Assembly: GCA_964608675.1 (NCBI GenBank)
Contig: CAZSOZ010000001.1
Span: forward strand, 221,272-285,271
DNA length: 64,000 nt
Source of the DNA: an uncultured archaeon
Lineage (GTDB): Archaea > Iainarchaeota > Iainarchaeia > Iainarchaeales > 1-14-0-10-31-34
Direction of reading: 5' to 3'
Shown here: positions 11,690 through 34,179 of the stretch, piece by piece
Layout: each line of letters begins with the position of its first letter
How positions within the stretch are numbered: the first letter of the stretch is position 1
Made by a program: the position numbers and the translations under genes
Notes under the pieces: generated by a model
Seen by the model: only the letters and a program-made list of their open reading frames with translations
Told to the model about the DNA's origin: nothing
The model's database searches: none

Positions 11690-11706
11690 TTTTTTTCCTG
11701 ATTTTT

Positions 11707-12867: not shown

Positions 12868-12982
12868 TAATATTTGGCTTCTTTAATTATTTAAAGGATT
12901 CTTTTTTTTTGTTTCTTCAATTTATTTAAAAATCGTTGCCTACTTTTATTTTTTCATATTTTTTATGAATTTGAGGGATGAA

Positions 12983-15987: not shown

Positions 15988-16263
15988 TTATTGATTGCAT
16001 ACAAAGCAAGTATCTGTAATTAATTCAGTCCAGTCAATTCTTCTTTTAAGTTCTCTTATTTCTTTTTTGAATTCTTTTCTTACTAAATATTTTGTGGGAA
16101 AACTTTTTTCTTTTTCAATTTTTTGTTTTTTCAGCAGTTCTTTTATTATTTCTCTTGTTTCGTTGAAGCCAAAAAAAGTTTTTTCCTGCAGTTCTTCAAT
16201 TGTTTTTGGCTTATCTAATAAAATAACTAATGCTTCTTTTTCTTTCAGTGAAAGTCCAGACAT
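15988..16263 (-). CDS. Small hypothetical protein, possibly winged-helix.
   Basis: ORF only. Confidence 0.3.
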   Translation of the reverse strand: MSGLSLKEKEALVILLDKPKTIEELQEKTFFGFNETREIIKELLKKQKIEKEKSFPTKYLVRKEFKKEIRELKRRIDWTELITDTCFVCNQ

Positions 16264-16268: not shown

Positions 16269-16685
16269 TCAGTAATTTGAGTTTGCTCTTCTTTTAATGT
16301 AATCCACTCTTATTTCTAATGCTTTGCTCATTTCGTTTTTGTCTTTTAATTCGTTCATTTTTTTTCCCAGAGTTTTGTCTCCAATTATGTTTGAAACCCA
16401 TTCTCCGAAATCATTTTTTTCTTGGTTAACGTGGCTTTTGAATGTTTCTTCATCCATTTCTTTTAAGTGTTCAGATAATTCACATAAATTTTTTACTGAA
16501 ATACTGTTATTTAAATAAAAATAATGATCAGGGTGTTTTACATTGCTTAACAGTACTGCAGCGCATTCGCTTCCGTTTGTTCTTTGCAGTTCGTATTTTG
16601 ATACTTCAGAAGAAAAAACATTAAACTCTTTTTTTAGTTTTGCAAAAACATTTTTCCAGAATCTAAATTCCATTAAATCACCCAA
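16269..16685 (-). CDS. Hypothetical protein.
   Basis: ORF only. Confidence 0.3.
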   Translation of the reverse strand: MGDLMEFRFWKNVFAKLKKEFNVFSSEVSKYELQRTNGSECAAVLLSNVKHPDHYFYLNNSISVKNLCELSEHLKEMDEETFKSHVNQEKNDFGEWVSNIIGDKTLGKKMNELKDKNEMSKALEIRVDYIKRRANSNY

Positions 16686-16727: not shown

Positions 16728-17690
16728 TTATTTTTTTTCGTGTTTTTCTGCAAATTTTTCTGCTTTTTTTAATGAAAGAAGCCCGTTGTGCGCGCCTATT
16801 GTTTTTATTACTGAGCAGGCGTTAGCGGTTCCTATTTTTAGTGCTTCAGGAATTTTCTTTTTTGCAGTTAATGCAGAAATGAATCCTGTTGAAAAAGAAT
16901 CTCCTGCTCCTGTAACGTCTTTTCTTTCAACATCATAAGCTTTTTGTTTAAAGAATTTTTTTCCGTTAAATGCAGTGCTTCCTTTTCTTCCATCAGTCAT
17001 TACAACTAAATTAACTTTCATTTGATTTAATTCTCTTATTGCATCTCTTTCGTTTTTCTTTTTTGTCCATTCAGTAATTTCATCTTTGTTTAAAATAATT
17101 AAATAACAGTTTTTTATCATGTTTTTTAGTTTGTGTAACCCTAATTTTCTTTGAGATGCTCCTGGATTAAATGCAAGCTTTATATTGTTTTTTTTGCAGA
17201 ACGCGCTTATTTTTTCCAGAAATTTTATGCTGGTTCCGAATGAACTCAAATAAATCCAGTTCATTTTTTTTAGTTTTCTCCAGGGAACCTTTTTTTCATC
17301 CCAGTTATTGTTGGCGCCTCTGTAAGTCATTATTGTTCTGTCTCCTTTTGGTTTTCTGAAAATAACTGAAAAGCCTGTTTCTTTTTCTGAGGCAACTGCA
17401 AGAATTTTTATTTTTTCTATTTTAAGCAGGTTTTCTATTTTTTTTGCAGTTGAATCGTTTCCAAGTGAAATTACTGCGTGTGCATCAAAGCCCATTTTTT
17501 TGAATCCAACAGAAGTATTTAATGCACCTCCCCCGAAATCAAAGTGAATTTCGTCTATATCAAATTTTTTGCCCAGTTTTAAGCATAAATCTGTTCCTTT
17601 TTCTGTTTTGCTTTTTCTGAAATGAAATTCGCTTGTTTTAACAAAAATATCCTGTGTGGCTGAACCAATGCATGCAATTTTTTTATTCAT
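16728..17690 (-). CDS. PfkB-family carbohydrate kinase (ribokinase-like).
   Basis: GGGALNTSVGF and DVTGAGDSFSTGFISAL, the PfkB signature regions. Confidence 0.7.
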   Translation of the reverse strand: MNKKIACIGSATQDIFVKTSEFHFRKSKTEKGTDLCLKLGKKFDIDEIHFDFGGGALNTSVGFKKMGFDAHAVISLGNDSTAKKIENLLKIEKIKILAVASEKETGFSVIFRKPKGDRTIMTYRGANNNWDEKKVPWRKLKKMNWIYLSSFGTSIKFLEKISAFCKKNNIKLAFNPGASQRKLGLHKLKNMIKNCYLIILNKDEITEWTKKKNERDAIRELNQMKVNLVVMTDGRKGSTAFNGKKFFKQKAYDVERKDVTGAGDSFSTGFISALTAKKKIPEALKIGTANACSVIKTIGAHNGLLSLKKAEKFAEKHEKK

Positions 17691-17889
17691 CTTTTAGAAT
17701 AACACAGAAATCTTATTTATTCTTTGTGCAAAAAAAAAAACAGTTATTTATGTATAATTTTTTGTTTTTTTATTAGTTTTCTTTAATGCAAACCTTTTTA
17801 TTTGAGTTAAGGAGTATATTATTTGCAGTGTTTTTACAGCTTTTTTTCACGCAGCTGCTGCATAATTATGAAGAAATCATGCAATTAAG

Positions 17890-19116
17890 TTGAGTTATAT
17901 GAAGGTATTAATGCTGGGCTGGGAGTTTCCTCCTTTTAAATCCGGAGGACTTGGAACTTATTTGTATGGCTTTACTAAATCTCTTGCAGGAAAAGGCGCA
18001 GAAATCACTTTTGTTATGCCTTCAACCGGCCTTAAAATTAATCCTGGTTTCATTAATTTAATTCAAGCTGATGACAACTATTCTCATTTGGATGTAGTTG
18101 AAATTGAAGGTTTTGGTTTGCATCCTTATATTCCTTCTCTTTCTTTTAATTCTTCTTCGACTGTTTTGAATGATTCTCCTTCTTCTGATAAAAGCATTAA
18201 TGCTTATGGAATGAATTTCTTTCAGAAAGTAAAGAATTACACTAATTCTGCTGTCAACAGAATGCAGTCTGTTTATTGTGATGTAATTCACTGCCATGAC
18301 TGGATGACTTTTCCTTCAGGTATTGCATTAAAGGAAAGAAAAAAAAAGCCTTTGGTTGTCACAATTCATTCAACTGAATATGACAGGACAGGAAACCTTT
18401 CTCCTAATCATGTGATATGTGAAATTGAAAGAAAAGGCATGCATTCAGCTGATAAAGTAATTACAATCAGCAATTTCATGAAAAAGCAGTTAATTGAAAA
18501 ATATGATGTTCCTGAACAAAAAATTTGCGTTGTATATAACGGTATAGATAAATCTTCTTATGTTGTTCAAGAAAAAACTTTTTTTCCGTTGAACGAAAAA
18601 ATTGTTTTGTTTTTAGGGCGTTTGACTATTCAAAAAGGCCCTGACTGGTTTCTTGAAGCAGCTTATCAAGTCCTTCAATTTCGTCCTAACACGCGTTTTG
18701 TGGTTGTAGGAAACGGAGACATGTTTTCTCAGTTAATTAATAAAGCTATTTCTATGGGGATTTCTGATAAAATTGTTTTTGCAGGCTTTCAGGATGACGT
18801 AAGAAAATTTTATTCTGTTGCTGATTTGTTTGTAATGCCTTCGGTTTCTGAGCCTTTTGGCTTGACTGCTTTGGAAGCTATGGCTTCAAATACTCCTGTA
18901 ATTATTTCAAAGCAGTCAGGAGTAAGCGAAGTAATAAATCATTGTTTTAAACTTGATTTCTGGGATACTCAGGAAATGACAAACAAAATTGTAGGAATCC
19001 TTGATTACCCTCCTTTATCTAATGAACTTAAAAAGAATGCTTTTAATGAACTGCAGTCTTTCAGCTGGGATACAGTTGCAGACAAATGCCTTGAAGTTTT
19101 CAGAGAGGTAATCTGA
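17890..19116 (+). CDS. glgA: Glycogen synthase, archaeal GlgA-like GT-B glycosyltransferase (GT4/GT5).
   Basis: N-terminal MKVLMLGWEFPPFKSGGLGTYLYGFTKSLAGKGAEITFVMP resembles Pyrococcus glycogen synthase (MKVLLLGFEFLPVKVGGLAEAL...). HCHDWMT and a C-terminal glycos_transf_1 EPFGLT..EAMA are also present. Confidence 0.65.
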   Translation: MSYMKVLMLGWEFPPFKSGGLGTYLYGFTKSLAGKGAEITFVMPSTGLKINPGFINLIQADDNYSHLDVVEIEGFGLHPYIPSLSFNSSSTVLNDSPSSDKSINAYGMNFFQKVKNYTNSAVNRMQSVYCDVIHCHDWMTFPSGIALKERKKKPLVVTIHSTEYDRTGNLSPNHVICEIERKGMHSADKVITISNFMKKQLIEKYDVPEQKICVVYNGIDKSSYVVQEKTFFPLNEKIVLFLGRLTIQKGPDWFLEAAYQVLQFRPNTRFVVVGNGDMFSQLINKAISMGISDKIVFAGFQDDVRKFYSVADLFVMPSVSEPFGLTALEAMASNTPVIISKQSGVSEVINHCFKLDFWDTQEMTNKIVGILDYPPLSNELKKNAFNELQSFSWDTVADKCLEVFREVI

Positions 19117-20294
19117 TGCCTTCTGTCTGTTTGTATTTTCATGTTCATCAGCCTTTGCGTTTAAAGAATTATTCTTTGTTTGATATCGGCAGGAACTCAA
19201 ATTATTTTGATGATTCTGCAAACAAGTTTTATCTTGAACGAGTTTCAAAAAAATGTTATCTTCCTACAAACAAAATGCTGTTTGATTTAATTCAAAAGCA
19301 TGAAGGAAAATTCAAATTTTGTTTTTCGATTACAGGAGTTTTTCTTGACCAATTGGAAGAAAGTTTTCCTGAAGTAGTTTCTTCTTTTCAAAAGCTTGTT
19401 GATACAGGAAACGTTGAATTATTTGATGAAACTTATTATCATTCTCTTGCTTATCTTGTTTCAAAAAAAGAATTCATTAAACAAGTAAGAATGCATTCAA
19501 AGAAATTCAGGGAAGTATTTGGAGTTAAACCTAAAATTTTTCGGAATACTGAAGCAATGTATTCTAACGATATAGCTGAAGCTGTTTCTGAAATGAATTT
19601 TAAGGGAATTGTGGCTGAAGGCCTTTCTCATATTCTTGGCTGGCGTTCTCCTAATTTTGTTTACAAAGCAAAAAATTCAGGAATTAAAGTGCTTCTCAGA
19701 AACTATAAACTGGCTGATGATATTGCTTTCCGTTTTTCTTTGCGTGATTGGAAGGAATGGCCTTTAACTGCAGATAAATACTCTTCTTGGCTTTCTTCTA
19801 ATAGAGGTCATTGCATTAATTTGTTTATGGATTACGAAACTTTTGGGGAACATCAATGGGAGTCAACTGGAATATTTAATTTTTTGTCTCATCTTCCTTC
19901 TGAAATTTTAAAATACAAAAATCTTGAATTTTCCACTGCTTCTGAAATTATTTCTGATTATCCTGCAGTAGGAGAATTTGATGTTCCGTATGTTTCTTCT
20001 TGGGCTGATGTTGACAGAGATCTTTCAGCATGGCTGGAGAACGAAATGCAGAAACAGGCTTTTAATGAAATAAAATCTTTGGAGGAAAAAATTCTTTCCT
20101 CTAAAAAAAGAAAACTTATTTCTGACTGGAGAAAACTGCAGATTTCTGATCATTTTTATTATATGTGCACTAAATGGTTTGCTGACGGTGACGTTCACAA
20201 ATATTTTAATCCTTATGATTCTCCTTATGATTCTTTTTTGAATTACATGAATGTGATTTCAGACATAAAAAACCGTTTGAAAACCGGAAGATAG
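19116..20294 (+). CDS. Glycoside hydrolase family 57 enzyme (alpha-amylase / 4-alpha-glucanotransferase / branching-enzyme type).
   Basis: The N-terminal CLYFHVHQPLRL (HxHQP) is typical of GH57. The start overlaps the stop of the preceding gene (ATGA). Confidence 0.7.
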   Translation: MPSVCLYFHVHQPLRLKNYSLFDIGRNSNYFDDSANKFYLERVSKKCYLPTNKMLFDLIQKHEGKFKFCFSITGVFLDQLEESFPEVVSSFQKLVDTGNVELFDETYYHSLAYLVSKKEFIKQVRMHSKKFREVFGVKPKIFRNTEAMYSNDIAEAVSEMNFKGIVAEGLSHILGWRSPNFVYKAKNSGIKVLLRNYKLADDIAFRFSLRDWKEWPLTADKYSSWLSSNRGHCINLFMDYETFGEHQWESTGIFNFLSHLPSEILKYKNLEFSTASEIISDYPAVGEFDVPYVSSWADVDRDLSAWLENEMQKQAFNEIKSLEEKILSSKKRKLISDWRKLQISDHFYYMCTKWFADGDVHKYFNPYDSPYDSFLNYMNVISDIKNRLKTGR

Positions 20295-20349
20295 ATTTAA
20301 TAATTTATTTTGTGCATTATTTATAGTTTATTTTTTTAGGGGGTATTAA

Positions 20350-20544
20350 ATGGATTCAAGTGAATATTTTGGAAGCAAGGCAGGAACTGTTTGGGGGGCA
20401 TTAAACAATAATAAACCAATGACTGCAATTCAAATAAAAAAAGCAACTAAACTAAAATCAGAGCATGTTTTTGCTGCTTTGGGCTGGCTTGCAAGAGAAG
20501 GAAAAATAGGGATTTCAAAAAACAGGTTTTATTTAACTGAATAA
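20350..20544 (+). CDS. Small winged-helix-like protein.
   Basis: 64-aa ORF with a GGGGT ribosome-binding site upstream. Confidence 0.3.
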   Translation: MDSSEYFGSKAGTVWGALNNNKPMTAIQIKKATKLKSEHVFAALGWLAREGKIGISKNRFYLTE

Positions 20545-20585
20545 CTTTTTTTTTGATTGATTTTTTTTCTTTTATTTGTTTTTAG

Positions 20586-22367
20586 TTATTTTTCGTATGC
20601 TTTAAGGTAGTTTTCAATTAGGTTTCCCCAGTCAGCTAATCCAGAGTATTCTTTTGCCTTTATTTTTTTCTGCATTCTTTCCTGTTTTGAAAAAGAATAC
20701 ATTTCGTACATGGTTTTTTTCATTTCCTGCACTTCTTCTGAATATGTTTTTCCTTTTCTTTTTAATACTTGAATGCTTCCTTTTGCTTTTTTTCCAAGTT
20801 TTTCTTCTATGAACTGCCCAAAACCGCCTAAATTTGTTGTCACTGAAGGAACTCCTAATGCAGCTGTTTCTAACGGCGTATAACCCCATGGCTCGTAGTA
20901 TGATGGAAACACTCCATAATGAGAGCCTATTATTGCTTCATAATAATTTAATCCTATTAATCCGTCTGCTGTGCTTAAGTAAGTGGGGTAATAGATTATT
21001 TTCACTTTGTCTTCTTCTCTGTTTAATAAATTATTCTTTTTTATTGCTTTGATTATTTCGTTTTCGTTTACATCAAAGGCACTTAATGGAGGCGTAAAGT
21101 CTTTTTTGCTTTTTAATTTTAACAGCATTTTTTTTGCGTTCATTAAAAAGTTTTTTTCAAATAAGTCGTCTTCCATTTTTTTTCCTTCCATTAAATTTCT
21201 GAATAATTTTTTGTGTATTTTTGGAAGCTCTCTTTCAATCATATCTTCTATTGTCTGGTGTATTGCCATGTTTTCCATTACTGCAATATTTCTTGCAGTG
21301 GTTTCTTCTGCAACCCATAAAAAAGCAACAACAATTTTGTCTTGTTTTTCTTTTTTTAATTGTTTGTTTAATTCTCCTAAACCGTCAATAAACAAGTCTA
21401 TTCCTTTGTTGTGGACTTCGTGTCTTCCTGCAATAAAATAAAAAATCGTGTTTTTTATGTTAAAATAATAATACGGATAAAAGTATGCTTCAACGAATTC
21501 TCTTATTCTATTTCTGTATTGTTTGTGTAAAATGCTTAAGTCTTCCATTATCGGAAATTTTTCCATGTCTAGTCCGTTTGGAAGAATTAAATCGCATTTT
21601 TTTCCTAAAAGAAATTCTGCTTCTCTTGCTACGGCTTTGCTTACGCTTGTAAATACATCTGCATTCCATGCACACGTTTTTTCCAGCAAAAATTTTGCCT
21701 GCATTCCATAATCGTATGCAAGCTGTGCGTCAGCTGGCTTTTTTTCTTTGAATCCTTTTTCTATTAATTCATATAAATCCTGTTTTTTTGATTCTGCTAT
21801 AGTTCTTCCTAAAGCTGTTGCGTGGGTTGTAAAAATTGTTTTTGTTTTGCTTTTTATTTTTTTTAAGTGAAGCAGTCCTGTTCCGCTTAAGTATTCATGA
21901 AAGTGTGCAATTATTTTCTTTTTTCCAAAAACATTATTTTTTTCGAGTTTTTCTATGGTTAATCCAACTGCTTTTGCCCAGACTATTGGTTCATCAAACC
22001 AGTCGTTTGCTCCTAATGAATCTATTTTGAATTCATCCCATAACTCTTTTTTTATTTCGTTTGTTTTATTTTTTAAATTTGAATGGTCTATGAGAATGCA
22101 TTCAGGGCTTTTTTCTGCCATCACCCAGTTTCCGTAATGGCATTTTATTCCAAATTCTTTTTCTAATTCCACAAAACTTTGATGGAATTTTTCTGGAATT
22201 TTTTTTTCTTCAAATTCTGTTTTAGCTTTTTTTTCGTAGTAAGGCCCTATTTCATAAAATTCTGGAATTCTTTCAATCATTCTTGCTGCCTTGCTGGTTA
22301 AAACCGTGTGAATTCCTCCGTATTTGTTGCCAACTTCATAGCTTGCTTCTAACACAACATAATCCAT
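20586..22367 (-). CDS. GT3-family (eukaryote-like) glycogen/starch synthase.
   Basis: The N-terminus MDYVVLEASYEVGNKYGGIHTVLTSKA matches the GT3 glycogen synthase signature (E.ANKVGGIYTVI.TKA); 593 aa. Confidence 0.6.
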   Translation of the reverse strand: MDYVVLEASYEVGNKYGGIHTVLTSKAARMIERIPEFYEIGPYYEKKAKTEFEEKKIPEKFHQSFVELEKEFGIKCHYGNWVMAEKSPECILIDHSNLKNKTNEIKKELWDEFKIDSLGANDWFDEPIVWAKAVGLTIEKLEKNNVFGKKKIIAHFHEYLSGTGLLHLKKIKSKTKTIFTTHATALGRTIAESKKQDLYELIEKGFKEKKPADAQLAYDYGMQAKFLLEKTCAWNADVFTSVSKAVAREAEFLLGKKCDLILPNGLDMEKFPIMEDLSILHKQYRNRIREFVEAYFYPYYYFNIKNTIFYFIAGRHEVHNKGIDLFIDGLGELNKQLKKEKQDKIVVAFLWVAEETTARNIAVMENMAIHQTIEDMIERELPKIHKKLFRNLMEGKKMEDDLFEKNFLMNAKKMLLKLKSKKDFTPPLSAFDVNENEIIKAIKKNNLLNREEDKVKIIYYPTYLSTADGLIGLNYYEAIIGSHYGVFPSYYEPWGYTPLETAALGVPSVTTNLGGFGQFIEEKLGKKAKGSIQVLKRKGKTYSEEVQEMKKTMYEMYSFSKQERMQKKIKAKEYSGLADWGNLIENYLKAYEK

Positions 22368-22442
22368 TAATTCACCGTTTTAATCCATTAATAATCAGGC
22401 TTTTCTTTTATTAAATTTATCTTATTAAAAAAAGAGTTTTTT

Positions 22443-22736
22443 TTACCGAATGTTTGGTTTATCGCATGCTTGATAATAATTATCTTTTGTTCCATCTGAA
22501 TTAATTGTATAACAATAACACCACCCTATGTTTCCGTTGTTTGAATGATCTTCTCCAAAACATTTTTCTCCTGAACAAGTTCTGGTGCTTCCATTCTCGC
22601 ATTCCACAGTAATACTTTTATTTAAAGGAACAATTGATTTTATTACAGGTTCTTCAATTATTTTCATTTCATTAAAAGAACCTGAAACAATAACCACTAA
22701 AAACAAGACAATTATTACTATAAAAATTTTTTTCAT
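22443..22736 (-). CDS. Small secreted Cys-rich protein (8 Cys).
   Basis: A signal peptide KKIFIVIIVLFLVVIVSGS, then a Cys-rich mature region (CENGSTRTCSGEKCFGEDHSNNGNIGWCYCYTINSDGTKDNYYQAC). Confidence 0.4.
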   Translation of the reverse strand: MKKIFIVIIVLFLVVIVSGSFNEMKIIEEPVIKSIVPLNKSITVECENGSTRTCSGEKCFGEDHSNNGNIGWCYCYTINSDGTKDNYYQACDKPNIR

Positions 22737-22813
22737 TTACTCCCCTCAAATAATATTTTCTTTTTTTTTTATATTTAAATAAATTCTATTTAAATTAGAT
22801 TTATCTATAGAGT

Positions 22814-23800
22814 TCAAGCTTTTTTTAGTTCTTCTGCTGCTTGTTCTGGCGGCACTTCAATTAATACGATTCCTGTGCCTTTTTCTATTCCTCCGTAAAC
22901 TTTTTTGACGTTTGGCTGAATTTTTAAATGAAAGCAGTAAGCAGGATTTTTTTTCGTTAATTCATGCAAAAAATAATTGTATGGGGGATTACCTAATTTT
23001 TTTAGTTTGTTTAAAACAAGTTTTATTGCTTCAGCTAAATCTTCTAAAACTTCTTCGTTCATTTCAGTTAAATTTGAGTATTGTTTTTTTGGCATAATCC
23101 ATGTTTCATAAGTCCATTTTGGCGCAAAAGCAGTAAAGACAACAAAATTTTTGTTTTCAAAGATTTTTCTTTCACTTTTGTTTTCGTTTTCTGCTATTTT
23201 CAAGAAAACATTTTTTTTGTGTTTTTCATAAAAATCTTCTGCTTTTTTTATTTCTCTTTGAATTAAGTTTGGAATAAAAGGAAAAGTAATTATCTGTGAA
23301 TGATTGTGTGAAAGAGAGGCACCGCATTCTTTTCCAAAGTTTTTTATTATTAAAACATGTTTTACTCCTTTTCTTTTTTGTAATTCGTTTTCTCTTTCCT
23401 TGTAAGCATTAAATAATTCTTTCATTTCTTTTTTTGTTAGTTCTGATAATTCTTTTGAATGAACGTTTGTTTCTACTATTATTTCATGGTAGCCAAACGC
23501 ATTTCCGTATTCCAATAACTCTTTTTTTTCTTTTTTAAATTCTTTTTTTGACTGCATGGCAGAAAATTTGTTGTTAAATCCTCTTAAGTCCCATTTTATT
23601 TTGTTTCCTGTCCTGAAAATTTCTGGAGGAGTCTGTTTTTCGTTTCCCAGACAAAAAGGGCAGTTTAAGTCAATTTCTTTTTTTTCTTTTTCAATTGTTT
23701 TTTCTCTTTGATGGTCAAATGGTCTTTTGCTCCTGTTTTTTGAAATAATTACCCATTCATCCAGCAAATAGTCTTTTCTTAATTCATTTATTTTTTCCAT
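22814..23800 (-). CDS. HIT-superfamily hexose-1-phosphate nucleotidyltransferase (GalT-like).
   Basis: CPFCLGNE zinc/HIT-type motif and SHNHSQI (HxHxQ-like) in a 328-aa protein. Confidence 0.6.
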   Translation of the reverse strand: MEKINELRKDYLLDEWVIISKNRSKRPFDHQREKTIEKEKKEIDLNCPFCLGNEKQTPPEIFRTGNKIKWDLRGFNNKFSAMQSKKEFKKEKKELLEYGNAFGYHEIIVETNVHSKELSELTKKEMKELFNAYKERENELQKRKGVKHVLIIKNFGKECGASLSHNHSQIITFPFIPNLIQREIKKAEDFYEKHKKNVFLKIAENENKSERKIFENKNFVVFTAFAPKWTYETWIMPKKQYSNLTEMNEEVLEDLAEAIKLVLNKLKKLGNPPYNYFLHELTKKNPAYCFHLKIQPNVKKVYGGIEKGTGIVLIEVPPEQAAEELKKA

Positions 23801-23845
23801 AATCTCTTTAAGACTTTGTTTTTTATATTTCTATTGGTTTTTTGA

Positions 23846-25213
23846 ATGAAAGTTAACCCTAATATTTTCAGGCAGTATGATATAAGAGGTTTAGTTAACG
23901 AAGAACTTTCAGGAAACTTCAGTGAATTTTTAGGAAAAGCAATAGGAACTTATTTAATTGAAAACGGCGGAAAAATTGCAGTAGTAGGCCATGATAACAG
24001 GCCGTCTTCTCCTTCTTTTGCAAAGAATTTAATTAAAGGTCTTGTTTCAACTGGAATCGAAGTCCTTGATGTTGGTTTGGTTCCTACTCCTGCTTATTAT
24101 TTTTCGGTTATTTATTTTGAAGCTCATGGCGGTGCAATGATTACTGGTTCTCATAATCCTTCTGAATTCAACGGCTTTAAGATTTCAAAAGGAAACCATG
24201 CAGTTTTTGGAGAAGAAATTCAAAAAATAAGGCAATTAATGGAAAAAGAAAATTTTATTGAAGGAAAAGGAAGCGTAATAAAAAAGAGTGTTTTGAAAAT
24301 TTATGCTGAAACCATTTTAAAGAAAGTTTCGTTGAAGAAAAAATTAAAGGTTGTATTGGACTGCGGGAATGGAGTAGGAAGCGTTATTGCTCCTGAAATT
24401 TTAAGAAAACTTAATACAAATTTAACTGAATTATATTGTGTTTCGGACGGAACTTTTCCTAATCATCATCCTGATCCAACTTTGCCTTCTACTTTGACTG
24501 ATTTGATTGCAAAAGTAAAGGAACTGAATGCTGATATAGGGATTGCTTTGGATGGTGATGCAGACAGAATCGGTGTTGTAGATGAAAAAGGAAATATTTT
24601 ATGGGGAGACCAGTTAATGATTTTGTTTTCTCGTGAATTGTTAGAAAAAATTCCTGGCGCAAAAATTTTAGTTGAAGTCAAATGCTCTCAGGCTTTAATT
24701 GATGACATTAAAAATCATAAAGGCCGGCCAGTTTTGTCTCCTACAGGACATAGCATTATTGAAGCAAAAATGGTTGAAGAGCATGCTTATATTGCAGGAG
24801 AAATGTCTGGCCACATGTTTTTTAGAGATGAATATTTTGGTTTTGATGACGCAATTTATGCTTCTGCCAGAATTTTAAGGATTCTTTCTAATTCAGATAA
24901 AAAGCTTTCTGAAATGCTTGCTGATGCACCAAAATATTTTTCTTCTCCTGAAATCAGAGTCGAGTGTTCTGATGAAGAAAAATTTGAAGTAGTAAAAAAA
25001 GTTGGAGACTTTTTTAAGGAAAACCATAAAGTAATTGGAGTGGATGGAGCAAGAGTATTGTTTGAAGATGGATGGGGTTTAATTCGTGCTTCAAACACTC
25101 AGCCTGTTCTTGTTTTAAGGTTTGAAGCAAAAACAAAACAGTTTTTAGAGGAAATCAAATCAAAATTCCGCCAAAAATTAAATGAATTTGAATGCGTTAA
25201 ATTAAACTTCTGA
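23846..25213 (+). CDS. Phosphoglucomutase / phosphomannomutase.
   Basis: ITGSHNPSEFNGFK active-site Ser loop and GIALDGDADR metal-binding loop. Confidence 0.8.
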   Translation: MKVNPNIFRQYDIRGLVNEELSGNFSEFLGKAIGTYLIENGGKIAVVGHDNRPSSPSFAKNLIKGLVSTGIEVLDVGLVPTPAYYFSVIYFEAHGGAMITGSHNPSEFNGFKISKGNHAVFGEEIQKIRQLMEKENFIEGKGSVIKKSVLKIYAETILKKVSLKKKLKVVLDCGNGVGSVIAPEILRKLNTNLTELYCVSDGTFPNHHPDPTLPSTLTDLIAKVKELNADIGIALDGDADRIGVVDEKGNILWGDQLMILFSRELLEKIPGAKILVEVKCSQALIDDIKNHKGRPVLSPTGHSIIEAKMVEEHAYIAGEMSGHMFFRDEYFGFDDAIYASARILRILSNSDKKLSEMLADAPKYFSSPEIRVECSDEEKFEVVKKVGDFFKENHKVIGVDGARVLFEDGWGLIRASNTQPVLVLRFEAKTKQFLEEIKSKFRQKLNEFECVKLNF

Positions 25214-25365
25214 TTTTTTTCTTTTTTAACGCTAACGTATCTCTAAAAAGTTTTAAGTTTTTCTGCTAGCGAAGATAAATTTTTTTTTTTAAAGCATTTC
25301 CTTTGCGTGTATTTGTATATTTTTACAAGCTCTTTTATATTATATAAAAAGCTTTTTTCTTTAAA

Positions 25366-27210
25366 TCAGTAAAATTCGGTTTTAATTTTCTTGTTTGTTG
25401 TTTTAGCTAGAATTTTGCCTTTCTTCTTTTCAACAATTAATTCAAATAAAGTGTTTCCTATTCTGATTTTTCTTTTAATGAATTTAATGCTTTCAGGAAG
25501 TTTTGGTTGTAAAAAAATTTTTTTTTCAAATGCATTTAATTTTATTCCAAGCATGAATTCATCTATTGCTTTTACTGCAAGTGCGTGGCCCCATAACTGC
25601 ATTCCACATCCTTTTAGTTCTCCTTTTGAATTCCAACATTCTCCTATTCCTCCAACACAGTCTTGATTTAAGTCTTCTGAAAATTTCATTAAATATTCTA
25701 ATGCTTTTTCTTTTCTTTCTGCTTTGAATTCACTGCACGCCATCCATCCATTACATAAACTCCAGCTTAATCCTGTGTGATAGCCTTCGTTAAATTTTTT
25801 TTCTTTTCTGCTTAAAGTCAGAATTCCTTTTTTTGAGTTGAATTCTTCTGATTCAAATAATTCAATTTCTTTTTTTGTTGCAGGTTTCTGCATTAAGTAA
25901 ACTAATGGATTGCAGGTTTTTATGAATTCATTTTTTTCATTTAATAAATCTCTGTAAACTGAATTTTTTTCAAAGTTTTTTATTATTTTTCTGTTTAATT
26001 CAACTGCTTTTTTTTCTGTTTCGTGTACTTCTTTTTCTTTTTCCTTTAATACAAGCAGGTTTCTGATTGAATGCAGGGCTTTCAGATAGAGTGCCTGTAT
26101 TTCTATTCCTGCTCCTTTTCTTTTAATTGAATCCATCCATGTTTCGTTTTCTTTATGAAAAATTAATCCTTGTTTTTCTTTTGTTTTAATGAAATCCATT
26201 ACTTTTTTGTATTTGATTTTTTTAAGTATTTTTTTGTTTCCTGAAGCAAAAACATAACTGCTTAATCCAATTAAAAACAAAAGTGATGCATCAATTGAAT
26301 TAAAGAAAACTTTTTTTCCTTCAATGTAATTAGGAATTTTTCCGTTTTTGTTTTTTTTCCAGAAATACAATAAAATTTTTTCTGCTTTTTCAAATTCTCC
26401 TAAAGACAGCAGTGCATTCAGACTCCATAAATTGTCTCTCCCCCAGTACTGCAGAAACCAAGGGTAGCCGGCAAAAAAATTTTTGTTGTTTTTCAGCAAA
26501 GTAATTCCTTTTGCTGAATCAGCAAACAGTCTTTTAATTTCATTGTTATTGCATTCAATTAATTTTTCTGTTTTTTTGTTTTCTTTTTCTTTTTTTTGTA
26601 TTTCTTTTTTTATGTCTTTTTCAGTTAACTTTTTTTCTTTTTCTGGAATCACTGCAAAAATTAATTGTTTTCCTTTAAGCAGGATTTTTCCAGGAACAAA
26701 ATATTTTTGTTTTTCGTTTGACGGAAAATGAGTTTCTTCTTTTTTTTCTTCAATGAAATTCATTTTTCCTTTAATTAAAAAAAAGTTTAGTTTTCCTAAG
26801 TCATTTGAAATTTTTATTTTGTTTTTCTTTTTGTTTGTTTTTATTTGATATTTTCTTTGAGTTAAATTTTCTTCTCTTTTCCTTATGTTTACTGCTAATT
26901 TAAGTTCTGTTTCTTTTTCTTTCAAAAAATTTATTTTTACATACAAGCCTGTCTTGTTTTTTGGAATAAATAAGGTTTCGGTTGAATTATCGTTATACGA
27001 GTGAACTGCTTTAATGTAATTGTATTCGGTTTTTTTGCATTTGTTTTCTTTCATTCCTTTAATTGAATAATATTCCAAGTATTTGTTTGAATTTTTCCAT
27101 AATCCTGTCCATTTTGTTTTGAAGCCGTTATCACAGTATCTTGAAAAAAAGCCTTTGTTTCCTGATAGAACATAATATTTTTGTTCTTTGTTTTCTGTAA
27201 TTGAATGCAT
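25366..27210 (-). CDS. Glycogen debranching enzyme (amylo-alpha-1,6-glucosidase, GDE_C type).
   Basis: FFAGYPWFLQYWGRDNLWSLNALLSLGEFEKAEKIL matches the GDE_C signature (GYPWF..WGRD); 614 aa. Confidence 0.7.
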   Translation of the reverse strand: MHSITENKEQKYYVLSGNKGFFSRYCDNGFKTKWTGLWKNSNKYLEYYSIKGMKENKCKKTEYNYIKAVHSYNDNSTETLFIPKNKTGLYVKINFLKEKETELKLAVNIRKREENLTQRKYQIKTNKKKNKIKISNDLGKLNFFLIKGKMNFIEEKKEETHFPSNEKQKYFVPGKILLKGKQLIFAVIPEKEKKLTEKDIKKEIQKKEKENKKTEKLIECNNNEIKRLFADSAKGITLLKNNKNFFAGYPWFLQYWGRDNLWSLNALLSLGEFEKAEKILLYFWKKNKNGKIPNYIEGKKVFFNSIDASLLFLIGLSSYVFASGNKKILKKIKYKKVMDFIKTKEKQGLIFHKENETWMDSIKRKGAGIEIQALYLKALHSIRNLLVLKEKEKEVHETEKKAVELNRKIIKNFEKNSVYRDLLNEKNEFIKTCNPLVYLMQKPATKKEIELFESEEFNSKKGILTLSRKEKKFNEGYHTGLSWSLCNGWMACSEFKAERKEKALEYLMKFSEDLNQDCVGGIGECWNSKGELKGCGMQLWGHALAVKAIDEFMLGIKLNAFEKKIFLQPKLPESIKFIKRKIRIGNTLFELIVEKKKGKILAKTTNKKIKTEFY

Positions 27211-30628: not shown

Positions 30629-31542
30629 AGTATTTGAAGGACTCTGTCGCAGAACTGGCTTAATGAATTAACTACTCCTTTATGTTCTTCTGATTTGACC
30701 ATTAAAAGAACTCCTTTCATTTTCCAGTCCCTTAGTTTTCCTATAACTAAATGAATAAATCTTTCAACTGAAGCAATATCGTTGTAAATTAACAAAGTGC
30801 TAATTGAATCAAAAACCAAAAATTTAGGTTTTTCTTTTTGTTTAACATATACTTCATCTATTGCAACACTTAATGCAGTTAAATCTCGAGGAGATTCAAT
30901 GAATTCAACGTTAGGATTAAAAGAAGCTTCTTTTCCTGTTCCTTTGCTTATTGCGTCAACAAAAATTAGTTTTTCTATATCTATTTTTTCTCTTTTAAGT
31001 GTTTCTTTCATGAAGTCAAAAGACCTATTCAAAGTTATGTATAATCCTTTTCCTTGTGTGTGGTTTATTAACAGTCTGATTAATTCGTAATTTATTTTTG
31101 AATAATTTGTTGGTTCCACTAAAAGCAGTGCAGTGAATTGTTCTTTTGGCAGTTCTTCTAAATATCTTAAAATTGTTAAGTCTATTCCTCTTCTCGGGCT
31201 TATTAATTCCTGCAGTGCTTCTTCTGGACGCATTTCTTTTTTTAAATCAGTTTTCATTTCAATGTTTTTTTTTCTTTTGTCTTTTTTTGTTACATAGGTT
31301 CTTATCTGTTTTTCAGGTTTTGTCAGAAGTTTTTCCAGTTCTTTAATTGAATCACCGTCTTTTCCGTTTTTTTTTGCTTCTTTGATTATTTCTTTTTTTC
31401 TTTCTTTTCCCAGGCTCTTTATTTGTTCTGTTAATTTCTGAAATCCTTCTTTTTTTTTTGCCTTCTTTTTTTTATTTTCTTTTTTCTTTTTTCCTTTTTT
31501 CTTGCTTTTCTTTTTTTTCTTTTTCATTTCAGATGTCCTCAA
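30625..31542 (-). CDS. KaiC/RecA-like protein without Walker A, carrying a poly-Lys N-terminal extension.
   Basis: N-terminus MKKKKKKSKKKGKKKKENKKKKAKKK, and a C-terminal FLVFDSISTLLIYNDIASVERFIHLVIGKLRDWKMKGVLLMV (Walker-B-like). It overlaps the downstream KaiC-like ATPase gene by 14 nt. Confidence 0.45.
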   Translation of the reverse strand: MRTSEMKKKKKKSKKKGKKKKENKKKKAKKKEGFQKLTEQIKSLGKERKKEIIKEAKKNGKDGDSIKELEKLLTKPEKQIRTYVTKKDKRKKNIEMKTDLKKEMRPEEALQELISPRRGIDLTILRYLEELPKEQFTALLLVEPTNYSKINYELIRLLINHTQGKGLYITLNRSFDFMKETLKREKIDIEKLIFVDAISKGTGKEASFNPNVEFIESPRDLTALSVAIDEVYVKQKEKPKFLVFDSISTLLIYNDIASVERFIHLVIGKLRDWKMKGVLLMVKSEEHKGVVNSLSQFCDRVLQIL

Positions 31543-32227
31543 ACAATTCCTGTTTTGATAAAACCTTTAATCCTGTCGGCCCGATTGTAACGGGATGAAG
31601 TTTTTCTGATATTTTTGTTCCTCTCATTTTTAGTATTCCTAAACTTCTTACAAACCTGTTTTCTATTTTTGTGTGATACAATAAAATTACTCCGTCTGCA
31701 ACATATTCTTCTAATCCAAACAAGCTTCTTGTTTTATCTAAATTTATTTCGTTTGTTATTACTGTTGTGCAGTCAATTTGTTTTAGCATTTTTCCAAGAC
31801 TCATTATTCTTTTTCTTGCATCCAGTTCTCTGTCAAAGTAAAGCCTGAAAATTACTCCTGGATCAATTACCAGTCTTTTTGCATTAATGGTTTGAATTGA
31901 ATCTTCAATCAAATTTTTGAGTTTGTCAAAATCATATAATTCCACTACTTCTATTATCAGCATTTTTTTCTGAATTAATTCTTCTAATTGGTATCCGAAT
32001 TCTTTTCCATTTCTTATTATTTCGTCGTATGTTTCTTCTAATGAAATGTATATTGCTGGTTCATTGAATTCTATTGCTCCTTTATATAAGTATTCCAGAC
32101 AAAAGCAGGTTTTTCCTGAACCTGGGTCTCCTGCTAATACAACAAGGTTTCCTCTTGGAATTCCTCCATCCATTAATTCATCTAAGCCTGGAACCCCTGT
32201 TTGCGTTCTGTCAGCTAATCTAGGCAT
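31529..32227 (-). CDS. KaiC-like RecA-superfamily ATPase, resembling FlaH/ArlH.
   Basis: GVPGLDELMDGGIPRGNLVVLAGDPGSGKTCFCLEY (Walker A) and RLVIDPG (Walker B); 232 aa, the single-domain size of FlaH. Confidence 0.65.
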   Translation of the reverse strand: MPRLADRTQTGVPGLDELMDGGIPRGNLVVLAGDPGSGKTCFCLEYLYKGAIEFNEPAIYISLEETYDEIIRNGKEFGYQLEELIQKKMLIIEVVELYDFDKLKNLIEDSIQTINAKRLVIDPGVIFRLYFDRELDARKRIMSLGKMLKQIDCTTVITNEINLDKTRSLFGLEEYVADGVILLYHTKIENRFVRSLGILKMRGTKISEKLHPVTIGPTGLKVLSKQELFEDI

Positions 32228-32377
32228 AAATTTTTCACTTCTAAATAAATAAGTTAAAGGTATTTAAAATAACTTGTTTAATTTTATTTTTTTCATAATT
32301 GTTTATTTTCTTAAACCGCAAAACATTTAAATACAACAATCTTTCTTATACTATTCAATAATTGTTTTTTTAACTTA

Positions 32378-32384: not shown

Positions 32385-32391
32385 AAGATAA

Positions 32392-34172: not shown

Positions 34173-34179
34173 TTTTTTT

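What the first reader, a model, noticed from the sequence alone, without database searches (positions are those of the whole stretch)
16728..27210. Glycogen cluster with two non-homologous glycogen synthases and a GalT-like enzyme in place of an NDP-glucose pyrophosphorylase
The cluster holds a PfkB kinase, an archaeal GlgA-like GT5 synthase, a GH57 enzyme, a small winged-helix protein, a GT3 (eukaryote-like) glycogen synthase, a secreted Cys-rich peptide, a HIT/GalT-like hexose-1-P nucleotidyltransferase, PGM and a GDE-type debranching enzyme. No GlgC or UGPase-like pyrophosphorylase is visible. The GalT-family enzyme next to PGM may supply the NDP-glucose donor, a phosphorylase-type route. 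Two unrelated synthase families in one locus is also unusual.
Basis: partly seen in the sequence, partly recalled or inferred. Interest (0 to 1): 0.5.

Follow-up and report, generated by a model that had tools for sequence, protein, structure and literature searches.

The report
DPANN glycogen cluster with ADP-glucose-phosphorylase-like enzyme
A small archaeon carries a conserved glycogen gene cluster that includes a relative of the plant ADP-glucose phosphorylase, and the same enzyme sits next to glycogen synthase genes in many bacteria and archaea, but there is no evidence here that it replaces the usual sugar-activating enzyme.

Summary
The window comes from a low-GC DPANN archaeon close to 'Ca. 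Diapherotrites'. The cluster order is conserved in other Diapherotrites. Its core (GT5-like synthase, GH57, DUF5752-like protein, GT3 synthase, GDE) recurs in about 30 DPANN-type contigs, so the two-synthase layout is the DPANN norm.

The GalT-like protein is not a Leloir GalT or an Ap4A phosphorylase. It falls in the clade of Arabidopsis At5g18200, the only characterised ADP-glucose phosphorylase (PDB E 6e-51; NJ bootstrap 57/60). In 26 of 83 loci from many phyla it lies directly beside a glycogen synthase gene. None of the 83 has a galK. Two recent reviews of prokaryotic glycogen metabolism do not mention this link.

"In place of a pyrophosphorylase" is not shown:
- Only 64 kb of the genome is visible.
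- About 12 related DPANN clusters lack both enzymes.
- Two clusters carry a pyrophosphorylase-type gene plus a divergent HIT homologue.
- The equilibrium favours ADP-glucose breakdown.

Best reading: a glycogen-dedicated NDP-glucose/Glc-1-P interconverting HIT enzyme, direction unresolved, more likely phosphorolytic. Moderately interesting.

The parts
12965..15622 (+). Pyruvate phosphate dikinase (context gene; also beside the cluster in L001)
   Evidence: Pfam PPDK_N, PEP-utilizers and PEP-utilizers_C. 73% identical copy next to PfkB in L001.
15988..16263 (-). 91-aa possible TrmB-like winged-helix protein (weak assignment)
   Evidence: Pfam TrmB E 0.002, below cut-off. Membership of the cluster is uncertain.
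16269..16685 (-).
   Evidence: Weak Pfam DUF5752 (E 2e-4; L101 homologue E 7e-6). tblastn finds homologues, often in tandem, next to GH57/GT3 in about 28 loci.
16728..17690 (-). PfkB-family sugar kinase, substrate unknown
   Evidence: Pfam PfkB E 4e-45. All NCBIfam equivalogs score below cut-off. Conserved in L001, L002 and L087; a weaker PfkB hit (24% identity) lies in L111.
17890..19116 (+). Archaeal GlgA-like GT-B synthase (GT5/GT4 type). The likely true start is the ATG at 17899.
   Evidence: Pfam Glyco_transf_5 plus Glycos_transf_1. Best PDB hit is P. abyssi glycogen synthase 2BIS/3FRO over the full length, E 5e-25. TIGR02095 and TIGR02149 score below cut-off.
19116..20294 (+). GH57 enzyme; its start overlaps the stop of the synthase by 1 nt. 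It is 392 aa; GH57 branching enzymes, as I recall, are about 520-560 aa.
   Evidence: Pfam Glyco_hydro_57 E 5e-79. No solved structure at E <= 1e-3. Paired with the GT5-like gene in at least 22 loci.
20350..20544 (+). DUF2582 winged-helix protein, putative regulator
   Evidence: Pfam DUF2582 E 4e-18. Conserved in L001, L002, L086, L087, L089 and L111.
20586..22367 (-). GT3 (eukaryote-type) glycogen synthase core, without the eukaryotic regulatory tails
   Evidence: Pfam Glycogen_syn E 1e-134. Human GYS1, C. elegans and yeast Gsy2p E 1e-93 to 2e-99 over residues 3-591. 80 relatives fetched.
22443..22736 (-). 97-aa Cys-rich ORF with a hydrophobic N-terminus. Lineage-specific insert between the GalT-like and GT3 genes, and not a conserved part of the cluster.
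   Evidence: No Pfam or NCBIfam hit. tblastn hits only the window itself. In L001 the GalT-like/GT3 gap is 50 bp.
22814..23800 (-). GalT-branch HIT nucleotidyltransferase of the ADP-glucose phosphorylase (At5g18200) clade
   Evidence: Pfam GalP_UDP_transf, GalP_UDP_tr_C and HIT. PDB 1Z84 E 6e-51 against E. coli GalT 7e-23. NJ tree and bootstrap. Directly adjacent to a glycogen synthase gene in 26 of 83 loci.
23294..23308 (-). Codons of the H165-N-H167-S-Q169 catalytic motif (His167 is the predicted nucleotidyl-accepting histidine)
   Evidence: Read from the sequence. H165, H167 and Q169 are invariant in alignment A1 and align with HSHSQ of At5g18200.
23651..23662 (-). Codons of C47-P-F-C50, the zinc-site CxxC
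   Evidence: C47 and C50 are invariant in A1 and align with CPFC of At5g18200. The second CxxC found in most relatives is absent here.
23846..25213 (+). Phosphoglucomutase/phosphomannomutase, divergently transcribed from the GalT-like gene across a 45-bp spacer
   Evidence: Four PGM_PMM domains. PgmG 483 bits and Arch_GlmM 400 bits, both below cut-off. Same position in L001, L002 and L087.
25366..27210 (-). GDE_C-type amylo-alpha-1,6-glucosidase (GH133-like debranching enzyme)
   Evidence: Pfam GDE_C E 7e-30. Weak PDB hits to eukaryotic debranching enzyme. Neighbour of GT3 or the GalT-like gene in 22 GT3-centred loci and within 10 kb of the GalT-like gene in 11 further loci.

Best explanation
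The region is the standard glycogen (alpha-glucan) gene cluster of DPANN archaea. It holds a GT5-like synthase translationally coupled to a GH57 enzyme, a GT3 synthase, a GH133-type debranching enzyme, PGM, a PfkB kinase, and two small conserved proteins (DUF2582, DUF5752-like).

The GalT-like gene encodes a HIT nucleotidyltransferase of the ADP-glucose phosphorylase type (EC 2.7.7.36-like). By the ping-pong mechanism established for its homologues, His167 attacks the alpha-phosphate of an NDP-glucose (ADP-glucose in the characterised plant enzyme). Glc-1-P is released, and the covalent NMP-enzyme is resolved by inorganic phosphate to give NDP. The reaction is reversible.

The enzyme therefore connects the sugar-nucleotide donor pool of the neighbouring synthases to Glc-1-P, which the adjacent PGM connects to Glc-6-P. 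It is a conserved but dispensable accessory of glucan clusters, not their core.

Shown here: family membership, intact catalytic and zinc-site residues, and the genomic linkage to synthase, PGM and GDE genes.

Inferred: the substrates and the physiological direction. I consider net phosphorolysis (NDP-glucose + Pi to NDP + Glc-1-P) the more likely direction. That would mean salvage or limitation of the donor, or, together with reversal of the synthase, ATP-free release of Glc-1-P from glycogen in clusters that encode no GT35 phosphorylase. Being the sole supplier of the donor is less likely.

A plausible inferred reason for two synthases is division of labour: a self-priming GT5-type enzyme and a primer-dependent GT3 enzyme, with no glycogenin present.
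For: Gene identities.

Cluster conservation:
- Diapherotrites L001 and L002, and L086 and L087.
- Woesearchaeota L021, L036, L039 and L042.
- About 30 DPANN-type contigs in all.

Clade membership of the HIT enzyme:
- PDB 1Z84/2H39 (At5g18200) E 6e-51, 176 bits. The archaeal GalT 6K5Z scores 135 bits and E. coli GalT 84 bits.
- BLASTP bit scores 187, 156 and 107 for the same three.
- In the NJ tree At5g18200 nests among the prokaryotic sequences, with PaGalT and EcGalT outside. Bootstrap 57/60 and 58/60.
- The catalytic and zinc ligands R23, R26, C47, C50, N77, H105, N154, G160, H165, H167 and Q169 are invariant in A1.

At5g18200 is an ADP-glucose phosphorylase with Km about 7 uM for ADP-glucose and an unknown physiological role (PMC6329318; PMC4136846; PMC11066809).

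Linkage:
- A glycogen synthase gene lies within 600 bp in 26 of 83 loci, 24 of them co-directional, spanning Diapherotrites, Woesearchaeota, Bathyarchaeia and bacterial groups including WOR-3, Zixibacteria, Thermotogae, KSB1, Nitrospirae, Ignavibacteria, Anaeromyxobacteraceae and delta-proteobacterial/Thermodesulfobacteriota lineages.
- No galK was found in any locus.

Accessory status: GT3 is followed directly by GDE, with no HIT gene, in L091, L093-L096, L099, L102, L105, L107, L108, L117 and L119.

No GT35 phosphorylase was detected in any DPANN-type locus.

Priming difference between GT5 and GT3, and the absence of a recognisable glycogenin in DPANN: PMC11046441.
Against: - No biochemical data exist for any prokaryotic member.
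- The nucleotide specificity (ADP, UDP or GDP) cannot be read from the sequence with what I could access.
- Identity to At5g18200 is only 32%.
- NCBIfam's galT_1 model scores above its cut-off (132 against 102 bits), and the 32%-identical P. aerophilum enzyme is described as a GalT, so a transferase activity is not excluded.
- Co-transcription of a donor-degrading enzyme with a synthase is not obviously adaptive, and synthase reversal in vivo is speculative.
- About 30 Acidobacteriota copies sit in housekeeping contexts with no glucan genes nearby, so the family may have roles outside glycogen metabolism.
- The Keq values I use (5 without Mg2+, about 40 with Mg2+) are from my memory of McCoy et al. 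2006, which the library does not hold.
Confidence: 0.5

Rival explanations
1. First reader's model. The HIT enzyme is the only source of the sugar-nucleotide donor. It makes ADP- (or NDP-) glucose from Glc-1-P and ADP, releasing Pi, and so replaces GlgC/GalU and saves one ATP equivalent per glucose stored.
For: - No PF00483 pyrophosphorylase in the 64-kb window.
- None within 10 kb of 16 of the 17 bacterial loci where the HIT gene adjoins a bacterial-type glgA (GalU only in L077).
- In 16 of those 17 loci the HIT gene sits immediately upstream of glgA, the place glgC often occupies (my knowledge); in L030 it lies just downstream.
- PGM is adjacent.
- In DPANN clusters the slot just upstream of GDE holds either the canonical HIT gene (L021, L036, L039, L104, L111) or an NTP_transferase/LbH gene (L101, L112). 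This hints at functional equivalence.
Against: - Thermodynamics. ADP-Glc + Pi to ADP + Glc-1-P is favoured. The net reaction Glc-1-P + glucan(n) to glucan(n+1) + Pi is the reverse of glycogen phosphorylase and needs Pi/Glc-1-P below about 3.6, far from usual cytosolic ratios (established knowledge, my own).
- About 12 related clusters encode neither enzyme, so the donor supply is normally encoded elsewhere.
- L101 and L112 carry both an NTP_transferase and a divergent HIT homologue.
- Arabidopsis has both AGPase and this enzyme.
- From memory, Thermotoga maritima has glgC as well as the glgA-adjacent GalT-like gene (unverified).
Confidence: 0.2
2. The HIT enzyme is a non-homologous functional analogue of GlgC. 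It is adenylylated by ATP (releasing PPi) and transfers AMP to Glc-1-P, so it is a HIT-type ADP-glucose pyrophosphorylase.
For: - It has the same operon-position and absence-of-GlgC arguments as the first rival.
- It removes the thermodynamic objection.
- By my recollection of McCoy 2006, the plant enzyme transfers AMP from ADP-glucose to 'various phosphates'.
Against: - No GalT-branch HIT enzyme is known to use NTP/PPi efficiently, and phosphate was the best acceptor for At5g18200 (memory).
- No sequence feature here argues for it.
- L101 and L112 contain both enzyme types.
Confidence: 0.08
3. It is a genuine Leloir-type UDP-glucose:galactose-1-phosphate uridylyltransferase. Glc-1-P from galactose catabolism passes to PGM, and its presence in the glycogen cluster is incidental.
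For: - TIGR00209 galT_1 scores 132 bits, above its 102-bit cut-off, and public records name relatives 'galactose-1-phosphate uridylyltransferase'.
- The P. aerophilum enzyme, 32% identical, is treated as a GalT.
- PGM is adjacent.
Against: - No galK in the window or in any of 83 loci, and only weak GalE-like (NAD-epimerase family) hits, 27-38% identical and 4.9-5.7 kb away, in 4 loci.
- The sequence groups with At5g18200, which has ADP-glucose phosphorylase activity and, as I recall from McCoy 2006, no GalT activity. It does not group with EcGalT or PaGalT.
- The recurrent neighbour is glycogen synthase.
Confidence: 0.05

Closest known systems
Arabidopsis thaliana At5g18200, ADP-glucose phosphorylase (PDB 1Z84, 1ZWJ, 2H39; EC 2.7.7.36)
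   Same: - Full-length alignment, 32% identity, E 6e-51.
- Same double HIT-like architecture.
- Same CxxC...H...HxHxQ zinc and catalytic residues.
- Same clade in the NJ tree.
   Different: - The window protein lacks the second CxxC metal site.
- The plant enzyme is cytosolic, with unknown physiological role and no gene-cluster context.
- The activity of the archaeal protein is untested.
Class I galactose-1-phosphate uridylyltransferase (E. coli GalT 1HXP; Pyrobaculum aerophilum GalT 6K5Z)
   Same: Same HIT-superfamily branch, the same HxHxQ nucleophile motif and zinc site, and a ping-pong nucleotidyl transfer mechanism.
   Different: - Lower similarity (84 and 135 bits).
- Both fall outside the clade.
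- No galK/galE context.
- The neighbours are glycogen synthases, PGM and GDE.
Classical GlgC-GlgA-GlgB glycogen pathway and archaeal/DPANN glycogen clusters as reviewed in PMC11046441
   Same: The components are those catalogued for archaea: a GT5-type synthase, a GT3 synthase (reported as confined to DPANN and Euryarchaeota among archaea), GH57, a GH133 debranching enzyme and PGM.
   Different: - No glgC in the cluster.
- A HIT-type NDP-glucose enzyme and a DUF5752-like protein are integrated. Neither GalT, histidine triad nor ADP-glucose phosphorylase appears in the held text of that review, and neither GalT nor uridylyltransferase in PMC12525153. The reviews were not searched for DUF5752.
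- The GH57 here is 392 aa; GH57 branching enzymes, as I recall, are about 520-560 aa.
Eukaryotic glycogen synthase (GT3; human GYS1, yeast Gsy2p)
   Same: The core catalytic region aligns end to end (E about 1e-99). The KxGG and EPWGYTP motifs are conserved.
   Different: - No N- or C-terminal phosphoregulatory tails.
- By my reading of the translation against the yeast sequence as I remember it (not aligned here), the Arg cluster of the Glc-6-P site is largely replaced by Lys and other residues.
- No glycogenin partner.
- Donor specificity is unknown. Archaeal GT3 enzymes are uncharacterised.

Membership tests
ADP-glucose phosphorylase clade of GalT-branch HIT proteins (At5g18200 type) | HxHxQ nucleotidyl-histidine motif | tested here: met
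   S-H165-N-H167-S-Q169 at 23294-23308(-). Invariant in A1. Aligned with HSHSQ of At5g18200.
ADP-glucose phosphorylase clade of GalT-branch HIT proteins (At5g18200 type) | Active-site zinc ligands (CxxC plus two His) | tested here: met
   C47, C50, H105 and H165 are invariant in A1 and aligned with the plant enzyme. The second, structural CxxC is missing in the window's subclade. I do not treat that site as defining.
ADP-glucose phosphorylase clade of GalT-branch HIT proteins (At5g18200 type) | Groups with At5g18200 to the exclusion of characterised GalTs | tested here: met
   NJ tree. Bootstrap: 58/60 exclude PaGalT and 57/60 nest At5g18200 among the prokaryotic sequences. Distance method only, with two outgroups.
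ADP-glucose phosphorylase clade of GalT-branch HIT proteins (At5g18200 type) | Catalyses ADP-glucose + Pi = ADP + Glc-1-P and lacks GalT activity | not testable with these tools
   Needs an enzyme assay.
Leloir galactose-1-phosphate uridylyltransferase | Genomic or pathway association with galactokinase and UDP-glucose 4-epimerase | tested here: not met
   tblastn with E. coli GalK found 0 hits in the window and 83 loci. Weak GalE-like hits, 4.9-5.7 kb away, occur in 4 loci.
Leloir galactose-1-phosphate uridylyltransferase | Scores above the curated model cut-off | tested here: met
   TIGR00209 galT_1 scores 132.4 bits against a cut-off of 102.1. NF008724 scores 157 bits against a cut-off of 448, which is not met. 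The TIGR model evidently also covers the phosphorylase clade.
Ap4A phosphorylase (Apa1/2, Rv2613c type) | Match to the Ap4A_phos_N model, or grouping with that family | tested here: not met
   PF19327 E 0.0061, 16.5 bits against a cut-off of 23.1. No Ap4A phosphorylase among the PDB hits at E <= 0.01.
GT3 glycogen synthase | Full-length match to PF05693 and to solved eukaryotic glycogen synthases | tested here: met
   PF05693 E 1e-134 over residues 7-591. GYS1, Gsy2p and the C. elegans enzyme E 1e-93 to 2e-99.
GT3 glycogen synthase | UDP-glucose-dependent, primer-dependent alpha-1,4 elongation | not testable with these tools
   Archaeal GT3 enzymes are enzymatically uncharacterised (PMC11046441).
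GT5 archaeal GlgA glycogen synthase | Starch-synthase catalytic domain plus GT-B C-terminal domain, with an archaeal glycogen synthase as closest solved relative | tested here: met
   PF08323 E 1.6e-21 and PF00534 E 2e-35. 2BIS/3FRO aligned over the full length, E 5e-25.
GT5 archaeal GlgA glycogen synthase | Reaches a curated glycogen synthase model cut-off | tested here: not met
   TIGR02095 scores 109 bits (cut-off 328). TIGR02149 scores 135 bits (cut-off 302). A GT4-type activity such as GlgM-like or TreT-like is not excluded.
NDP-glucose pyrophosphorylase (GlgC/GalU, PF00483) as part of this organism's pathway | Gene present in the cluster or window | tested here: not met
   No PF00483 hit among the 50 ORFs of at least 150 aa scanned with Pfam or in the NTP_transferase HMM search of all stop-to-stop reading frames of at least 80 aa.
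NDP-glucose pyrophosphorylase (GlgC/GalU, PF00483) as part of this organism's pathway | Gene present or absent in the whole genome | not testable with these tools
   The source contig is not retrievable. A homologue search with a DPANN NTP_transferase gave no hit on contigs of the relevant lengths among the best 120 of 6391, which is inconclusive.

The most novel reading that the evidence does not exclude
The At5g18200-type HIT enzyme is a widespread, unrecognised step of prokaryotic glycogen metabolism that takes the place of a canonical enzyme. There are two versions.

1. It is the donor-forming step, a non-homologous replacement of GlgC/GalU. It makes NDP-glucose from Glc-1-P with ADP at low Pi, or with ATP.
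2. Paired with a reversible glycogen synthase, it forms a two-enzyme substitute for glycogen phosphorylase, releasing Glc-1-P from glycogen with only catalytic ADP.

Either version would also give a physiological role to the plant enzyme, whose function is still unknown.
Probability: 0.25. Interest if true: 0.75.

Novelty: new variant of a known kind. Interest (0 to 1): 0.5.

Why it matters
Glycogen synthesis is taught as pyrophosphorylase, then synthase, then branching enzyme. The only characterised ADP-glucose phosphorylase (At5g18200) has had no known role since 2006.

The prokaryotic members of its clade are embedded in glycogen operons. They lie directly beside GlgA in more than ten bacterial phylum-level groups and beside GT3/GDE/PGM in DPANN and Bathyarchaeia. 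That gives a concrete, testable hypothesis for the family's function.

It also exposes an annotation problem. These genes are named 'galactose-1-phosphate uridylyltransferase' in public records, which falsely implies a Leloir pathway in organisms with no galactokinase in the window or beside any of the 83 related copies examined.

If the enzyme substitutes for GlgC or for glycogen phosphorylase, reconstructions of carbon storage in DPANN and in many anaerobes would need revising.

Tried and rejected
1. Retrieving the source contig to scan the rest of the genome. The look-up of encoding contigs has no record for the window protein or for the identical P0001.

2. A contig-length fingerprint. I searched homologues of a DPANN cluster-associated NTP_transferase (L101) and looked for hits on contigs of 364048, 146652, 269766 or 103803 bp. 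There were none among the best 120 of 6391 hits, which is uninformative.

3. Non-orthologous displacement test. An NTP_transferase/LbH gene occupies the slot upstream of GDE in L101 and L112. Both loci also carry a very divergent HIT homologue (HGHMQ/HGHFQ motif). Pfam itself does not recognise that homologue. The displacement is therefore not clean, and n = 2.

4. Literature.
- No paper in the library combines galT, glgA, ADP-glucose, phosphorylase and HIT.
- None combines GalT, glycogen synthase and DPANN.
- TM0896, GSU3256 and DUF4921 gave no hits. DUF4931 appears only in one unrelated structural preprint.
- McCoy et al. 2006 is not held, so its kinetic and Keq values are quoted from memory. 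Only the Km of about 7 uM is corroborated.
- Several 'ADP-glucose phosphorylase' hits in plant papers (one checked) are slips for pyrophosphorylase.

5. Reading ADP versus UDP specificity from the sequence. I do not have reliable knowledge of the base-contacting residues, so I made no claim.

6. Assigning the GH57 enzyme to a characterised activity. There is no solved relative at E <= 1e-3, so it is left as GH57 of unknown specificity.

7. The Ap4A phosphorylase and Leloir GalT readings were considered and rejected on the evidence given in the membership tests.

Full report
**1. Observation**

Their family assignments hold (Pfam, NCBIfam):

| Coordinates | Assignment |
|---|---|
| 16728-17690(-) | PfkB kinase |
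| 17890-19116(+) | GT4/GT5-type synthase |
| 19116-20294(+) | GH57, start overlapping the synthase stop |
| 20350-20544(+) | DUF2582 winged helix |
| 20586-22367(-) | GT3 glycogen synthase (PF05693, E 1e-134) |
| 22443-22736(-) | 97-aa Cys-rich ORF, no family |
| 22814-23800(-) | GalT-like HIT protein |
| 23846-25213(+) | PGM/PMM |
| 25366-27210(-) | GDE_C |

Solved-structure searches agree. The 408-aa synthase aligns end to end with Pyrococcus abyssi GlgA. The GT3 protein aligns with human, worm and yeast glycogen synthases at about 1e-99.

I scanned all 50 ORFs of at least 150 aa in the window against Pfam. I also ran a sensitive NTP_transferase HMM over all reading frames. The only nucleotidyltransferase is IspD. 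The statement 'no GlgC/UGPase visible' is therefore true for these 64 kb and only for them.

**2. Organism and conservation**

The closest named relatives of the GalT-like protein are from 'Candidatus Diapherotrites' and other DPANN archaea. An identical protein is recorded on a 364-kb contig that I could not retrieve.

Two other Diapherotrites MAGs have GalT-like proteins 74% and 50% identical. Both carry the same genes in the same order: GDE (absent from L001, whose contig ends within PGM), PGM, GalT-like, GT3, DUF2582, GH57, GT5-like, PfkB. One of them also has the neighbouring PPDK.

I scanned metagenome contigs with a GT3 alignment and followed with tblastn. This shows a DPANN-type core of GT5-like, GH57, GT3 and GDE in about 30 contigs. 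GT5-like and GT3 occur together in at least 27 loci when the genome-derived loci are added.

Two synthases in one locus is therefore the normal DPANN layout. A 2024 review already records GT3 synthases in DPANN and notes that GT3 and GT5 are related GT-B families (PMC11046441). The two window proteins share the EPxGxxxLEA motif (E 4e-4). 'Non-homologous' is not correct.

The Cys-rich ORF is unique to this genome.

**3. What the GalT-like protein is**

- Its best solved relative is Arabidopsis At5g18200 (1Z84/2H39; E 6e-51, 176 bits). This is well ahead of the Pyrobaculum GalT (135 bits) and E. coli GalT (84 bits). BLASTP gives 187, 156 and 107 bits.
- At5g18200 is the characterised ADP-glucose phosphorylase. 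It has a Km of about 7 uM for ADP-glucose, and its physiological function is still unknown.
- I built a neighbour-joining tree of 94 sequences. At5g18200 nests among the prokaryotic sequences, while PaGalT and EcGalT lie outside. Bootstrap support is 57/60 and 58/60.
- The catalytic H165-x-H167-x-Q169 motif, the CxxC/His zinc ligands and the phosphate-binding arginines are invariant in a 21-sequence alignment.
- The window's subclade has lost a second CxxC metal site that most relatives retain.
- The Ap4A phosphorylase model scores below threshold.
- NCBIfam's galT_1 model is passed. This explains why public records name these proteins galactose-1-phosphate uridylyltransferase.

**4. Genomic linkage of the family**

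I fetched 80 loci from GTDB species genomes and searched them with the window's proteins and with E. coli GalK, GalE, GalM, GlgA, GlgB, GlgC, GlgP, GlgX and GalU.

- No locus has a galK.
- In 26 of 83 loci a glycogen synthase gene lies within 600 bp of the HIT gene, co-directional in 24.
- The adjacent synthase is bacterial GlgA in WOR-3, Zixibacteria, Thermotogae, KSB1, Nitrospirae, Ignavibacteria, Stahlbacteria, Binatia, Anaeromyxobacteraceae and several delta-proteobacterial/Thermodesulfobacteriota lineages.
- It is GT3 in Woesearchaeota and Diapherotrites.
- In Bathyarchaeia the neighbours are GT5-like or GDE.
- Unsupervised clustering of all neighbours ranks GT5/GlgA first (24 loci), then an aminotransferase family and GDE (16 loci each).
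- About 30 Acidobacteriota copies sit among housekeeping genes instead.
- In a few Desulfobacterota-like loci the order is HIT, GlgA, GAF histidine kinase, then GalU, with a response-regulator gene recurring nearby.

Two recent reviews of prokaryotic glycogen metabolism do not mention GalT, and the first also lacks the terms histidine triad and ADP-glucose phosphorylase. Targeted literature searches found nothing either.

**5. Does it stand in for a pyrophosphorylase?**

In favour:
- No NTP_transferase in the window.
- None within 10 kb of 16 of the 17 loci where the HIT gene adjoins a bacterial-type glgA (GalU only in L077).
- In 16 of those 17 loci the HIT gene sits immediately upstream of glgA, where glgC often sits (my knowledge).
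- PGM is adjacent.
- In DPANN clusters the slot upstream of GDE holds either the HIT gene or, in L101 and L112, an NTP_transferase/LbH gene.

Against:
- L101 and L112 also carry a very divergent HIT homologue (HGHMQ/HGHFQ). It is linked to the family through L111, although Pfam does not recognise it.
- About a dozen DPANN clusters have neither enzyme between or around GT3 and GDE. Donor supply is therefore usually encoded elsewhere, and its absence from a cluster is uninformative.
- Arabidopsis has both enzymes.
- The whole-genome test could not be run.

There is also a thermodynamic objection. This rests on my knowledge of group-transfer potentials and my memory of McCoy et al. 2006, which the library does not hold. 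ADP-Glc + Pi to ADP + Glc-1-P has a Keq of roughly 5-40. Coupling the reverse reaction to a synthase gives the net reaction Glc-1-P + glucan(n) to glucan(n+1) + Pi. That is glycogen phosphorylase run backwards, and it proceeds only when Pi/Glc-1-P is below about 3.6. Typical cells are one to two orders of magnitude away from this ratio.

**6. Most likely mechanism**

I conclude that the gene encodes a glycogen-dedicated NDP-glucose/Glc-1-P interconverting HIT enzyme that works through a His167-NMP intermediate. It links the synthases' donor pool to the PGM-connected hexose-phosphate pool.

Direction is inferred, not shown. Phosphorolysis is the thermodynamically natural direction, and it fits the very low Km for ADP-glucose of the plant enzyme. 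Combined with synthase reversal it would yield Glc-1-P from glycogen without ATP. I note as a possibility that these clusters encode no GT35 phosphorylase.

The supply model (about 0.2) and a HIT-type pyrophosphorylase (about 0.08) remain open. A true Leloir GalT is unlikely (about 0.05).

For the two synthases, a division of labour is a reasonable inference: a self-priming GT5-type enzyme and a primer-dependent GT3 enzyme, with no glycogenin. It follows from the properties summarised in PMC11046441. It is untested.

**7. Verdict**

- Supported: the right enzyme chemistry, a real glycogen linkage, and not an Ap4A phosphorylase.
- Not supported: replacement of a pyrophosphorylase is unproven and thermodynamically disfavoured, and the two-synthase 'oddity' is the lineage norm.

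What is new is the breadth of the association between At5g18200-type enzymes and glycogen synthase genes, together with the systematic misnaming of these genes as galT. I rate the interest at 0.5 and classify the finding as a new variant of a known kind.

Noticed in passing
window 8030-12867 (-): A bacterial-type MEP/DOXP isoprenoid pathway block in an archaeon: DXS (8030-9826), IspF (9927-10448), IspD (10492-11190) and DXR (11707-12867), all with strong Pfam hits. From memory, acquisition of this pathway from bacteria has been reported for Diapherotrites. I did not verify that here.
   Followed up: no
window 16269-16685 (-); homologues in L001, L002, L021, L036, L087, L092-L096, L101-L103, L105-L108, L112, L113, L115, L117, L119, L139: A small DUF5752-like protein of unknown function is one of the most constant members of DPANN GT3/GH57 glycogen clusters. 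It is often present as tandem copies or fused into a roughly 250-aa protein.
   Followed up: partly
window 45771-47969 (+): A GAPDH (Gp_dh_N/Gp_dh_C; from memory the bacterial/eukaryotic-type models) followed directly by PGK. PPDK lies at 12965-15622. Glycolytic/gluconeogenic genes cluster near the glycogen locus.
   Followed up: no
L101:10338-11417(-), L112:9772-10860(-), L111:9920-10945(+): A very divergent subfamily of GalT-branch HIT proteins (HGHMQ/HGHFQ/HPHVQ motifs) sits inside DPANN glycogen clusters. The L101 and L112 copies have lost one Cys of the CxxC, are invisible to Pfam at E <= 0.01, and co-occur with an NTP_transferase/LbH gene.
   Followed up: partly
L042:8130-9089 and 9962-10960; L028:8974-9984 and 10001-10993: Tandem duplicated GalT-like genes, in a Woesearchaeota MAG (next to GT3, PGM and GDE) and in an Omnitrophota MAG.
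   Followed up: no
L077:10001-15528; also L027, L032, L037: In delta-proteobacterial/Thermodesulfobacteriota loci the HIT gene is followed by GlgA, a GAF-domain histidine kinase and GalU (UDP-glucose pyrophosphorylase) within about 5 kb. An OmpR-type response-regulator family recurs about 2 kb downstream in 12 loci. This suggests regulated co-expression with a UDP-glucose-forming enzyme.
   Followed up: partly
L009, L013, L015, L025 (Bathyarchaeia): In L025 the GalT-like gene lies next to GDE, an ARMT1-like damage-control phosphatase and triose-phosphate isomerase; the phosphatase and TIM families recur in 9 and 10 loci. GDE is adjacent in all four loci. This is a different glucan/sugar-phosphate context from the one in DPANN.
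   Followed up: no
window 22443-22736 (-): A 97-aa ORF with an N-terminal hydrophobic segment and 7 cysteines is inserted between the GalT-like and GT3 genes. It has no homologue in any of 163 related loci. It may be a lineage-specific secreted peptide or a spurious ORF.
   Followed up: partly
window 31529-38358 (-) and 40470-43241 (-): A KaiC-like ATPase, two T2SSF-type membrane proteins and a T2SSE ATPase (a type IV pilus or archaellum-like assembly set), and a 923-aa LVIVD-repeat/VWA protein. Several large ORFs have no family, including a 1330-aa ORF at 55996-59988.
   Followed up: no
window 3269-3877 (+): A 202-aa protein with a dockerin type I domain (E 6e-8), in my experience unusual in an archaeon with a small genome.
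   Followed up: no
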